Below are positions 1,690 through 2,015 of a DNA stretch of 43,597 nt, in pieces. The first letter of the stretch is position 1. Each line of letters starts with the position of its first letter. The DNA comes from a virus. Taxonomy: Duplodnaviria; Heunggongvirae; Uroviricota; Caudoviricetes. The stretch is taken from positions 1 to 43,597 of IMG/VR virus record IMGVR_UViG_2778261529_000002; one strand, 5' to 3'. The notes beneath the pieces are model-generated. The model saw only the letters and a list, made by a program, of their open reading frames with translations, did no database searches and was not told the DNA's origin. Both the position numbers and the translations under genes were made by a program.

Positions 1690-1709
1690 TGGTGTCCCCT
1701 GCAGGCATC
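1690..1709 (-). other. Prophage attachment-site core: copy of a tRNA-Arg (argW-like) 3-prime end, reads GATgCCTGCAGGGGACACCA on the minus strand
   Basis: 16 of 16 nt match to the acceptor 3-prime strand plus CCA of argW as I recall it; sits between host permease region and the excisionase gene. Confidence 0.6.
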
Positions 1710-1777
1710 TACTTGGCGCGGCAGGGGATTGATTGGAATGGTATTTTTTAGATGTGAAAAATATTTTACCCGCTATT

Positions 1778-1978
1778 TTACCCATTGGCGCGGCTTAAGA
1801 GCTTATTTTTGAATTCACAATGGTCACGATATAACCATCTTGCTCGTCCGTGGATAACTTTGGCTTTAGGCAGGTCGCCGGACTTAATCCGGTCATAGAT
1901 GAAGGTCTTACCGAAGCCAGTATCAGCCATGATGAATTTCAAATCAACCAGTGAATCAGGCTGTAGTTCGTGTTGCAT
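1778..1978 (-). CDS. torI: Excisionase / recombination directionality factor, TorI(AlpA)-family winged-helix protein (66 aa)
   Basis: 66-aa ORF with AGGAG-like SD; sequence matches TorI/AlpA-type RDFs as I recall them; located at the prophage end opposite the integrase, as in KplE1. Confidence 0.75.
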   Translation of the reverse strand: MQHELQPDSLVDLKFIMADTGFGKTFIYDRIKSGDLPKAKVIHGRARWLYRDHCEFKNKLLSRANG

Positions 1979-1997
1979 GAGTGCTATCTCCGAATAG

Positions 1998-2015
1998 GGA
2001 ATCGAACCTGCAAAT
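1998..2015 (-). other. tRNA T-arm-like fragment (ATTTGCAGGTTCGATTCC), 17 of 18 match to the argW T-arm; not a complete tRNA
   Basis: Sequence seen directly upstream of the torI start; together with 1690-1709 it would reconstitute a tRNA 3-prime half if the 288 bp between were removed. Confidence 0.35.

What the first reader, a model, noticed from the sequence alone, without database searches (positions are those of the whole stretch)
1690..2015. Attachment junction: tRNA-Arg 3-prime end split around the torI gene
On the minus strand, ATTTGCAGGTTCGATTCC (T-arm, 1998-2015) is followed by the torI gene and then CCTGCAGGGGACACCA (acceptor end plus CCA, 1690-1709). Joined, they would recreate the 3-prime half of an argW-type tRNA. 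So either the phage arm next to the core keeps an older, longer tRNA-derived segment into which the excisionase cassette was inserted, or two att remnants of different ages lie in tandem. The integrase is about 41 kb away at the other prophage end. This rests on my recollection of the argW sequence.
Basis: partly seen in the sequence, partly recalled or inferred. Interest (0 to 1): 0.45.

Follow-up and report, generated by a model that had tools for sequence, protein, structure and literature searches.

The report
tRNA T-loop copy before phage excisionase
This is the well-known torI-side end of a KplE1/HK620-type prophage sitting in the argW tRNA gene, and the extra tRNA-like piece upstream of torI is not a scar or the other half of a split tRNA but a short element carried by the phage and kept almost unchanged in front of the excisionase gene in many related phages, so it probably regulates that gene.

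Summary
Both strings are real. The minus strand matches argW exactly at 1998-2013 (TTGCAGGTTCGATTCC) and at 1690-1705 (CCTGCAGGGGACACCA). The second string is the published KplE1/HK620/Sf6/Kapi1 att core, at the torI-side junction of a roughly 42-kb IntS/TorI prophage in argW, so that part is already known. The first string is phage DNA. It is present in free HK620 and Sf6 genomes and in K-12 KplE1, and it lies 197 nt outside the 135-bp attR that recombines in vitro. Across at least 9 lineages of Enterobacterales phages, including excisionases only 35-40% identical, the motif cagGTTCGATTcCc sits about 29 nt before the excisionase start codon. It is as conserved as the att core (0.91 against 0.94 mean pairwise identity; excisionase third codon positions 0.51; 5' flank 0.33). 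It occurs as a tandem duplicate in two lineages and is absent from about half. The phage side of the core keeps its own TTCGAT, so the upstream piece is a second copy of the host (attB) type, not the missing half. The "split by insertion" and "two old remnants" readings are not supported. Best reading: a conserved cis-regulatory element that mimics the left half-site of attB. Integrase is the likeliest binder, but this is untested.

The parts
1249..1689 (.). Host DNA downstream of argW (the B' side), next to the cscB-like sugar permease gene at 1-1248.
   Evidence: 99.8% identical to unoccupied csc-argW loci up to the tRNA (hit H6). The permease matches LacY_symp.
1690..1705 (-). att core: CCTGCAGGGGACACCA, identical to the 3' end of argW. 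It contains the inferred 7-bp overlap TGCAGGG (1697-1703) flanked by the dyad GATGCC / GACACC.
   Evidence: The published 16-17 nt core of KplE1, HK620, Sf6 and Kapi1 is CTGCAGGGGACACCAT(T) (PMC2951348; PMC8787464). The position of the overlap is my inference from the dyad symmetry.
1704..1712 (-). Phage-side (C-type) half-site next to the overlap. It reads GTAGATGCC here and TTCGATGTA in most other lineages, so it is T-loop-like.
   Evidence: per-column match to the argW T-loop bases TTCGAT is 0.48-0.95 across 21 modules, and the following TCC is replaced by GTA or GTC. Integrase binding here is inferred, not shown.
1721..1734 (-). P-arm motif AATCAATCCCCTGC. It contains an 8-nt perfect inverted repeat of the core (TCCCCTGC / GCAGGGGA) and resembles an IHF site.
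   Evidence: repeat I5. It is conserved as CCCTGC in nearly all lineages (farP column). One functional IHF site on attR is my recollection of the abstract of Panis et al. 2010, Virology 404:41, a paper the library does not hold. Assigning that site to this motif is also my inference.
1763..1783 (-). Two direct repeats GGGTAAAAT, 12 nt apart, overlapping the torI stop codon. They resemble IntS arm-type sites (TAAA motif).
   Evidence: repeat D3. The TAAA motif of arm-type sites is stated in PMC2951348.
1778..1978 (-). torI, the excisionase (recombination directionality factor), 66 aa.
   Evidence: 100% identical to K-12 TorI and to PDB 1Z4H, Tor inhibition protein.
1988..1991 (-). Shine-Dalgarno sequence GGAG of torI.
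   Evidence: Read directly from the sequence. A GGAG lies downstream of the element in all the element-bearing lineages examined: 5 nt after it in most, 3, 6 and 12 nt in three others.
1997..2013 (-). The 'T-arm fragment'. It is exactly identical to argW over 1998-2013. The conserved element CAGGTTCGATTCCC occupies 1997-2010 and copies the tRNA T-loop, that is, the left (B) half-site of attB.
   Evidence: HK620 and Sf6 annotate it as part of the 'pI / phage integration promoter'. CUS-3 annotates it as 'attR core'.
2019..2044 (-). Intrinsic-terminator-like hairpin GCTGCATCAATGCGGC followed by TTTTTATT, immediately upstream of the element.
   Evidence: HK620, Sf6 and CUS-3 have a different hairpin at the same position.
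2047..2101 (-). Remnant of the N-terminus of a P22/ST64T-type xis gene (HSLTLDEACSFLKISRPT...), equivalent to ypdJ in K-12. It marks the mosaic left boundary of the module.
   Evidence: (matches to xis regions of ST64T, epsilon34, ES18 and P22).
42440..43597 (-). intS, a heterobivalent tyrosine integrase, at the other end of the prophage. argW/attL lies beyond the window edge.
   Evidence: arm-binding, central and catalytic domains. The other junction was seen in the relative ECONIH6.

Best explanation
The region is the torI-side junction (attR in KplE1 terms) of an IntS/TorI prophage of the KplE1/HK620/Sf6 type, integrated in argW. Recombination uses only the 16-nt core at 1690-1705.

The T-arm string 290-310 bp further in is phage DNA. 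It is a conserved 13-14 nt cis-element (CAGGTTCGATTCCC) in the leader of the excisionase gene, about 29 nt before its start codon. It reproduces the host-type left half-site of attB, that is, the tRNA T-loop plus CC.

I propose that it is a protein-binding regulatory site controlling excisionase expression, and possibly read-through into int. The likeliest binder is the core-binding domain of the integrase. That is the only protein of the module whose DNA specificity must stay constant, because the host target stays constant. Integrase bound there could bridge to the two arm-type repeats at the 3' end of torI and could silence or tune the excisionase gene.

Shown: the sequence identities, the phage-borne location, the position outside the minimal attR, and the conservation pattern.

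Inferred: that the element is functional, which protein binds it, and the direction of the regulation.
For: - Core and junction. The core is identical to the argW 3' end, and the host flank matches the unoccupied locus. It is the same core as the published one. A relative with the same flank has intact argW followed by intS at the other end.
- The element is phage-borne. It is identical in free HK620 and Sf6 genomes and in K-12 KplE1, and essentially invariant in 79 E. coli-type viral loci.
- It lies outside the recombination site. The in vitro attR substrate starts at the primer that maps to window 1782-1801.
- It is conserved. GTTCGATT is invariant in 10 copies from 9 lineages with unalignable flanks, and it sits 28-29 nt from the ATG in most. 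Mean pairwise identities are: element 0.91, att core 0.94, excisionase codon positions 1+2 0.76, position 3 0.51, 5' flank 0.33.
- It is kept with excisionases of at least 3 subfamilies.
- It occurs as tandem copies in Midgardsormr38 and L584.
- It is of the attB type (TCC), whereas the phage side of the core has GTA or GTC.
- It does not change in phiEt88, whose int-side arm repeats (the likely excisionase sites) have changed from GTTCG to CCGATGTAACC, while its core and C site have not.
- Recombination proteins of this module are already known to double as transcription regulators at PintS, and the torI promoter is described as uncharacterised.
Against: - No binding or expression data exist for this element.
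- About half of the related modules lack it, and Dryocola shows a clean deletion of about 25 nt, so it is dispensable in some contexts.
- Core-type half-sites are usually weak integrase binders on their own.
- Within E. coli, singleton variants occur in it about as often as in its flanks.
- All modules examined target argW, so covariation with the target tRNA could not be tested.
- Promoter, RNA-level and TorI-operator roles remain possible.
Confidence: 0.5

Rival explanations
1. Neutral relic of a split. An ancestral attP carried the argW 3' half from the T-arm to CCA, the excisionase cassette (about 292 bp) was inserted at CC, and the upstream string is merely the left half left behind.
For: In E. 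coli-type modules the two pieces abut in tRNA coordinates with only a CC overlap and together give 30 nt of argW. Identity blocks running from the T-arm to the 3' end are common in phages that integrate into tRNA genes (general knowledge).
Against: - The phage side of the core retains its own TTCGAT in most lineages, so the tracts overlap by 9-13 nt rather than complementing each other.
- No uninterrupted long-core relative was found. The CUS-3 'cores' are an annotation placed on this repeat.
- Conservation of 0.91, against 0.33 for the flank and 0.51 for third codon positions, is incompatible with neutral decay.
- Tandem duplication occurs in two lineages.
- An insertion that duplicated the T-loop could still be the ultimate origin of a now-functional element.
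Confidence: 0.1
2. Leftover of an older event at argW: tandem att remnants, or the product of an aberrant, possibly integrase-mediated, recombination that fused the argW left part to the torI leader and was later captured by the phage.
For: The element is of the host (attB) type. In most lineages its tRNA identity ends at the inferred B/overlap boundary, GATTCC|TGCAGGG. 16-bp direct repeats flank the prophage.
Against: - The element is carried in free phage genomes.
- It lacks the 3' end that a displaced tRNA fragment would have.
- No argW-element-torI intermediate exists in 5,426 complete E. coli genomes.
- Capture would need two further illegitimate joints.
- In most lineages the stem bases differ from the host tRNA, so these are not recent captures.
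- The scenario does not explain the conservation.
Confidence: 0.07
3. Part of an activator-dependent promoter, the 'pI' of the HK620 and Sf6 annotations. Its start site would fall at or just after the torI start codon, so that, as with lambda PI, Int is made without excisionase during establishment of lysogeny. The element would be the activator site overlapping the -35 region.
For: HK620 annotates a promoter plus a cII box (TTGCCTGATTTGC) here, and Sf6 annotates the promoter (pI) by homology to HK620. The element lies at a nearly fixed distance from the ATG (28-29 nt). By my own reading of the sequences, a TAnnAC-like hexamer follows at a constant position. A terminator-like hairpin lies just upstream, so a separate promoter would make sense.
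Against: The cII box has N5 spacing instead of the lambda N6 and is absent from most lineages that keep the element. No sigma-70-like promoter is detected. The invariant bases are not the TTGC repeats. No transcription start site data are available.
Confidence: 0.15
4. TorI autoregulation: the element is an operator for the excisionase itself.
For: The element contains GTTCG, one of the published TorI-site pentamers (GTTCG, GATCG, GTCCG). It resembles site I4 (TGGTTCGC). In P. stewartii and Edwardsiella a second GTTCG or GTCCG follows 12 nt later. TorI is already known to repress PintS.
Against: A single pentamer is expected by chance every couple of hundred bp. The second site is not conserved. 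phiEt88 keeps the element although its int-side arm repeats no longer contain GTTCG. The conserved bases extend beyond the pentamer (ATTCC).
Confidence: 0.1
5. RNA-level control: in the mRNA leader, GGUUCGAUUCCC pairs with GGAGAUAAAACC and sequesters the ribosome-binding site, or acts as a T-loop mimic.
For: RNAalifold finds 9 pairs that are kept in most of 8 leaders, including CC/GG over the Shine-Dalgarno sequence. The element and the GGAGATAAAACC-type Shine-Dalgarno region co-occur.
Against: The consensus energy is only -1.9 kcal/mol, and only 1 pair shows a compensatory change. Single-sequence z-scores run from -0.76 to +0.51. The E. coli leader lacks the outer helix. A true T-arm stem of 4 bp or more is present in only about 3 of 9 lineages. 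There is no Rfam match.
Confidence: 0.08

Closest known systems
KplE1 (CPS-53) attR-torI junction of E. coli K-12, and the attP modules of phages HK620, Sf6 and Kapi1 (IntS / TorI = HkaC / gp18)
   Same: TorI is identical and IntS is about 96% identical. The core is the same. The GGGTAAAAT repeats, the IHF-like motif, the leader and the 16-nt T-arm string upstream of torI are the same. The excisionase and integrase genes lie at opposite prophage ends.
   Different: The host flank is the csc sucrose locus rather than dsdC. The first core base is C (CCTGCAGG) rather than T. The prophage body is about 42 kb, is different, and carries tRNA-Asn and tRNA-Thr. A P22-type xis remnant and a different terminator hairpin lie upstream.
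Displaced tRNA 3' fragments left next to tRNA genes by integrating elements (Reiter 1989; Williams 2002; general knowledge)
   Same: A direct repeat derived from a tRNA gene at the far end of an integrated element.
   Different: Those fragments run from the crossover to the tRNA 3' end and mark the element/host boundary. Here that description fits the 1690-1705 core. The upstream string covers only the T-stem 5' strand, the T-loop and CC. It lies inside the phage and travels with it.
Lambda PI / xis-int arrangement and cII-dependent promoters
   Same: A regulatory region placed at the start of the excisionase gene, which could uncouple Int from excisionase expression. HK620 and Sf6 were annotated by this analogy.
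   Different: attP lies between the excisionase and integrase genes. The cII box has the wrong spacing and is not conserved. The conserved bases are a tRNA T-loop copy, which lambda lacks.
Autoregulation of intS by IntS and TorI bound to att-site sequences that overlap PintS (Panis et al. 2010, PMC2951348)
   Same: Recombination proteins acting as transcription regulators through recombination-type binding sites. The proposed mechanism for the element follows the same logic.
   Different: That regulation uses arm-type and TorI sites within attL and is shown experimentally. The element is a core-type (attB-like) half-site outside attR, and its role is untested.

Membership tests
KplE1/HK620-type recombination module (IntS - attP - TorI in argW) | TorI-family excisionase encoded next to the att core | tested here: met
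   66/66 identical to K-12 TorI and to PDB 1Z4H. The core begins 72 nt after the stop codon.
KplE1/HK620-type recombination module (IntS - attP - TorI in argW) | IntS-type heterobivalent tyrosine integrase at the opposite prophage end | tested here: met
   385-aa ORF at 42440-43597(-). About 96% nucleotide identity to annotated intS genes. Arm-DNA-bind_3, Phage_int_M and Phage_integrase domains.
KplE1/HK620-type recombination module (IntS - attP - TorI in argW) | 16-nt core identical to the argW 3' end, duplicated at both prophage ends | tested here: met
   The core is at 1690-1705 and is the same as the published core. The second copy lies beyond the window. It was seen in K-12 and in the close relative ECONIH6.
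KplE1/HK620-type recombination module (IntS - attP - TorI in argW) | Arm-type (TAAA) repeats and an IHF-like site in the short P arm | tested here: met
   GGGTAAAAT twice at 1763-1783 and AATCAATCCCCTG at 1722-1734. This rests on sequence only.
KplE1/HK620-type recombination module (IntS - attP - TorI in argW) | Excision or integration activity | not testable with these tools
   Needs PCR for attP and attB, or in vitro recombination.
Displaced tRNA fragment / older att remnant (for the 1998-2013 string) | The fragment spans from the crossover to the tRNA 3' end | tested here: not met
   The string ends at GATTCC and is followed by the torI leader. There is no acceptor strand or CCA.
Displaced tRNA fragment / older att remnant (for the 1998-2013 string) | Lies in chromosomal DNA left behind and is not carried by the free phage | tested here: not met
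   Present in the phage genomes of HK620, Sf6, g341c, Emek, Midgardsormr38 and phiEt88.
tRNA-derived attP segment split by a cassette insertion | The two parts are complementary (non-overlapping) in tRNA coordinates | tested here: not met
   In E. coli there is only a CC overlap. In most lineages, however, the phage side of the core retains TTCGAT, giving a 9-13 nt overlap with the upstream element.
tRNA-derived attP segment split by a cassette insertion | Relatives exist with the uninterrupted segment | tested here: inconclusive
   None was seen among the modules examined. The 30-mer scan returned contigs with the contiguous 30-mer, and these were not inspected individually. CUS-3 is not such a case. 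The search was not exhaustive.
cII-dependent (lambda PI/PRE-type) promoter | TTGC-N6-TTGC box over a weak -35, plus a -10 element | tested here: not met
   HK620 and the window have TTGC-N5-TTGC. The box is absent from the Edwardsiella, Pantoea, g341c, Midgardsormr38 and phiEt88 leaders that keep the element. No sigma-70-like promoter was found.
TorI operator | Contains a TorI-site pentamer (GTTCG, GATCG or GTCCG) | tested here: met
   GTTCG lies within the element. The pentamers are from PMC2951348.
TorI operator | The sequence follows changes in the excisionase's DNA specificity | tested here: not met
   phiEt88 has int-side arm repeats CCGATGTAACC and no GTTCG, yet the element is unchanged.
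tRNA gene or pseudogene | Recognised by tRNA models | tested here: not met
   ARAGORN finds only tRNA-Asn and tRNA-Thr at 16.4 kb. There is no Rfam tRNA match in 1500-2300 at E-value up to 5.
Integrase core-type (attB B half-site) binding site | Sequence equals the half-site left of the overlap in attB | tested here: met
   TTCGATTCC in the element equals argW positions 54-62, immediately left of the inferred overlap TGCAGGG. The position of the overlap is itself inferred.
Integrase core-type (attB B half-site) binding site | Bound by the integrase | not testable with these tools
   Needs a gel shift or footprint with IntS.

The most novel reading that the evidence does not exclude
Phages of this family carry a decoy copy of the left half of their chromosomal target (the argW T-loop half-site of attB) directly in front of the excisionase gene. 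The integrase reads this copy to set excisionase, and possibly its own, expression. This would be an integrase-to-excisionase feedback that stabilises lysogeny and has not been described for tyrosine-integrase modules.
Probability: 0.25. Interest if true: 0.6.

Novelty: new variant of a known kind. Interest (0 to 1): 0.38.

Why it matters
The junction itself is textbook KplE1/HK620 biology. The added value is threefold.

First, the same 16-bp repeat has misled database annotation. The CUS-3 prophage record sets its ends on it and so omits torI and the real core. Boundary-calling tools that look for the longest tRNA-derived direct repeat can make the same error.

Second, how torI is controlled is the acknowledged open point of this system. 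Its promoter is described as uncharacterised, and excision is said to depend on excisionase expression. A short element as conserved as the att core, sitting 29 nt from the start codon, is an obvious place to look.

Third, if the element is an integrase-binding copy of attB, it would be a new regulatory use of a recombination half-site.

Tried and rejected
- I looked for a phage with an uninterrupted T-arm-to-CCA attP. CUS-3 seemed to be one, because its 'attR core' matched the string. Its record simply ends at the repeat, and its 'attL core' is the same 16-mer inside argW. Rejected.
- I looked for a chromosomal argW-element-torI intermediate. There were 0 among 5,426 complete E. coli genomes.
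- A hit to the 45-nt leader alone (H30) turned out to be a deletion that removes torI and half the core, not a new context.
- A leader RNA structure is weak and unsupported. There is no Rfam family.
- No sigma-70 promoter was found.
- Covariation with other target tRNAs: the scan for non-argW T-loop + SD + ATG cassettes gave 122 hits, none followed by a TorI-family ORF.
- The scan for tandem T-loops was dominated by tRNA arrays and tmRNAs of large phages and was uninformative for this question.
- Distant excisionase homologues (MAGs L232-L235, Pseudomonas phi297) showed nothing comparable.
- The primary att-mapping papers (Panis 2007 JBC; Panis 2010 Virology), the CUS-3 paper and Menouni 2013 PNAS are not held in the library.
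- The exact source genome is not among the complete RefSeq E. coli genomes.
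Full report
**Observation.** On the minus strand the window reads ...ttttattgcctgaTTTGCAGGTTCGATTCCctattcGGAGatagcactcATG(torI)...TAAaatagcGGGTAAAATattt...ccaagtagatgCCTGCAGGGGACACCAgatacccttc. K-12 argW and an unoccupied locus both end ...GGGCTAATTGCAGGTTCGATTCCTGCAGGGGACACCA. Each 16-mer is unique in the window, and about 0.03 matches are expected by chance even with two mismatches allowed. Overlapped on the shared CC, the two pieces give 30 nt of the argW 3' half. 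torI (1778-1978) is 100% identical to K-12 TorI and to PDB 1Z4H. The 385-aa integrase gene at 42440-43597 is an IntS homologue with arm-binding, central and catalytic domains. The window ends at its start codon.

**What the junction is.** Window 1-1689 is host DNA: a cscB-like permease and the argW-distal flank. It is 99.8% identical to unoccupied loci in which the sequence runs straight into argW. The core at 1690-1705 is the published duplicated core of KplE1, HK620, Sf6 and Kapi1, CTGCAGGGGACACCAT(T) (PMC2951348; PMC8787464). In a close relative with the same host flank (ECONIH6, 98.9% identical on the torI side), the other end shows intact argW followed by TTTATCAGTTCGC... and intS. This is therefore the canonical torI-side junction, attR in KplE1 nomenclature, of a prophage carrying the IntS-attP-TorI module. 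That part is already known.

**The upstream T-arm string is phage DNA and lies outside the recombination site.** The same string, with the same leader, occurs upstream of torI in K-12 KplE1 and in the free phage genomes HK620 and Sf6. It also occurs in 79 E. coli-type viral loci, with only scattered singleton variants. In vitro excision works with a 135-bp attR whose phage-side primer, CTCTTAAGCCGCGCCAATGG (PMC3509656), maps to window 1782-1801. That is 197 nt short of the string. HK620 annotates the stretch as a 'phage integration' promoter with a cII box, and Sf6 annotates it as the pI promoter by homology to HK620. The CUS-3 prophage record uses the 16-mer as its 'attL core' (inside argW) and 'attR core', and so stops before torI and the real core. 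The repeat has therefore been seen before, but it was read in incompatible ways. No paper in the library quotes the sequence. The torI promoter is called 'non-characterized'.

**Comparative evidence.** I collected excisionase-attP-int modules from one genome per species and from phage records. All carry an argW-type core 70-100 nt after the excisionase stop codon.

- A T-loop string lies upstream of the excisionase gene in E. coli, a Citrobacter, a Serratia, two Pantoea, Edwardsiella, the Salmonella phages g341c and Emek, and the Erwinia phages Midgardsormr38 and phiEt88.
- It is absent from Dryocola, Tatumella, Rouxiella, Arsenophonus, Proteus, several Pantoea, Erwinia phage 49 and Klebsiella phage Chronis.
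- Dryocola keeps the left flank (ttttattgcctg) but lacks about 25 nt, which looks like a clean deletion.
- Anchored on the motif, the consensus is cagGTTCGATTcCc. GTTCGATT is invariant in 10 copies from 9 lineages, and both flanks are unalignable. The motif lies 28-29 nt from the ATG in most lineages.
- Mean pairwise identities are: motif 0.91, att core 0.94, phage-side half-site 0.80, excisionase codon positions 1+2 0.76, third positions 0.51, 5' flank 0.33.
- Midgardsormr38 and the viral contig L584 carry two tandem copies.
- A further scan added new combinations of flanks, spacers and excisionase subfamilies. 20 of the 120 sampled cassettes precede a TorI-family ORF, and the rest are ordinary tRNA genes.

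This pattern is that of a constrained cis-element, not of a decaying relic.

**Why it is not 'the other half' of a split tRNA.** Across 21 modules, the nine bases on the phage side of the inferred overlap read TTCGATGTA or TTCGATGTC. They match the T-loop bases TTCGAT of argW at 0.48-0.95 per column, while the following TCC is replaced. The attP proper therefore already carries a T-loop-like tract contiguous with the core, presumably the C core-type site. The upstream element overlaps it in tRNA coordinates. The neat abutment seen in E. coli is a feature of that lineage, where the phage-side tract has drifted to GTAGATGCC. The upstream copy is of the host type (TCC), so it equals the B half-site of attB. 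From the dyad GATGTC|TGCAGGG|GACACC I infer a 7-bp overlap, TGCAGGG. In most lineages the element's identity to the tRNA ends exactly at that boundary. In most lineages the stem bases of the element (TCCAGG, ACAGG, GCCGG, CCAAG, CTAGG) differ from the GCAGG that the host T-stem must have, so these are not recent captures from the resident tRNA. No genome with argW continuing through the element into torI exists among 5,426 complete E. coli genomes.

**Mechanism.** Four functional readings were considered.

- *cII-type promoter.* The box has N5 spacing and is missing from most lineages that keep the element. No sigma-70-like promoter is detected. The fixed distance to the ATG, and the terminator-like hairpin just upstream, keep an activator-dependent promoter possible.
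- *TorI operator.* The element contains the published TorI pentamer GTTCG. However, phiEt88 has replaced the GTTCG-type repeats in its int-side arm with CCGATGTAACC and still keeps the element.
- *RNA hairpin over the Shine-Dalgarno sequence.* RNAalifold proposes 9 pairs, but the consensus energy is -1.9 kcal/mol, there is one compensatory pair, and single-sequence z-scores are about zero. There is no Rfam match.
- *Integrase core-type site.* The only module-encoded DNA specificity that must stay constant across all these phages is the integrase's recognition of the attB half-site, because the host target is constant. The element is a copy of that half-site. Two arm-type-like repeats overlap the torI stop codon, so a bivalent integrase could bridge the two ends of torI.

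I therefore favour a regulatory protein-binding element with integrase as the likeliest ligand, controlling excisionase expression. This is an inference. No binding or expression data exist, and about half the lineages do without the element.

**Comparison and novelty.** The module is a full member of the KplE1/HK620 family by every sequence criterion tested. The upstream string fails the defining features of a displaced tRNA fragment, a split segment, a cII promoter and a tRNA pseudogene. The junction is already known. The recognition that the T-loop string is a deeply conserved, attB-type element in excisionase leaders appears not to be described in the literature I could search. I rate it a new variant of a known kind (a recombination-site sequence used as a regulatory site) and of moderate interest.

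**Verdict.** Confidence that the string is a conserved phage-borne element, rather than a scar or a split half, is about 0.8. Confidence in the overall best explanation, a regulatory protein-binding site, is about 0.5. Confidence that integrase specifically is the binder is about 0.25-0.3.

Noticed in passing
L124 2521-2536 and L126 1-16 (CUS-3, CP000711.1): The CUS-3 prophage record sets its 'attL core' and 'attR core' on the 16-bp repeat TTGCAGGTTCGATTCC. It therefore ends before where torI and the true CTGCAGGGGACACCA core lie in related modules. These boundaries are probably mis-set.
   Followed up: yes
L242 about 2480-2545, minus strand (E. coli F404, NZ_OY754364.1): A natural deletion fuses ...GGTTCGATTCCCTATTCGG directly to ACACCATCCTTG. 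It removes torI, the P arm and the left half of the core, with GGA microhomology at the joint. The prophage at argW-dsdC has therefore lost both its excisionase gene and its attR.
   Followed up: partly
window 2047-2101 (-): Remnant of the N-terminus of a P22/ST64T-type xis gene (HSLTLDEACSFLKISRPT), without a start codon, directly upstream of the torI module. It corresponds to ypdJ in K-12. g341c and Emek have the same remnant, broken 8 nt before the element. This marks a mosaic joint where an older xis-int module was replaced.
   Followed up: partly
window 1695-1702 and 1721-1728: A perfect 8-nt inverted repeat (TCCCCTGC / GCAGGGGA) between the att core and the P arm, 18 nt apart. The P-arm copy (atCCCCTGC) is conserved in nearly all lineages and overlaps an IHF-like motif.
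   Followed up: partly
window 16424-16579 (+): tRNA-Asn(GTT) and tRNA-Thr(TGT) genes 5 nt apart inside the prophage.
   Followed up: no
window about 38700-42300: The region next to intS matches tail-fibre and tail-fibre-assembly genes, a pinE-like site-specific invertase and a GIY-YIG protein in other E. coli genomes. This may be an invertible tail-fibre segment. The prophage body differs from the P22-like phages that usually carry this integration module.
   Followed up: no
L237 about 1555-1600 (Midgardsormr38) and L584: Two tandem copies of CAGGTTCGATTCCC, 16 nt apart start to start, upstream of the excisionase gene.
   Followed up: partly
L367 11852-11889 (-); also L375, L377-L379, L383, L385 (IMG/VR contigs): A recurrent sequence of about 95 nt with two T-arm hairpins (GGC GGTTCGATTCC GTYC ... 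GGT GGTTCGATTCC ACC). In L367 it lies in a gap between tRNA-Ser and tRNA-Ile, within a phage tRNA array. In the two copies checked (L367, L375), neither ARAGORN nor the Rfam tRNA model calls it. It is unrelated to the finding.
   Followed up: partly
L002 252-1499 compared with window 1-1248: The cscB-like oligosaccharide permease is intact in the window. In strain YJ1, whose argW is unoccupied, it is annotated with an internal stop.
   Followed up: no
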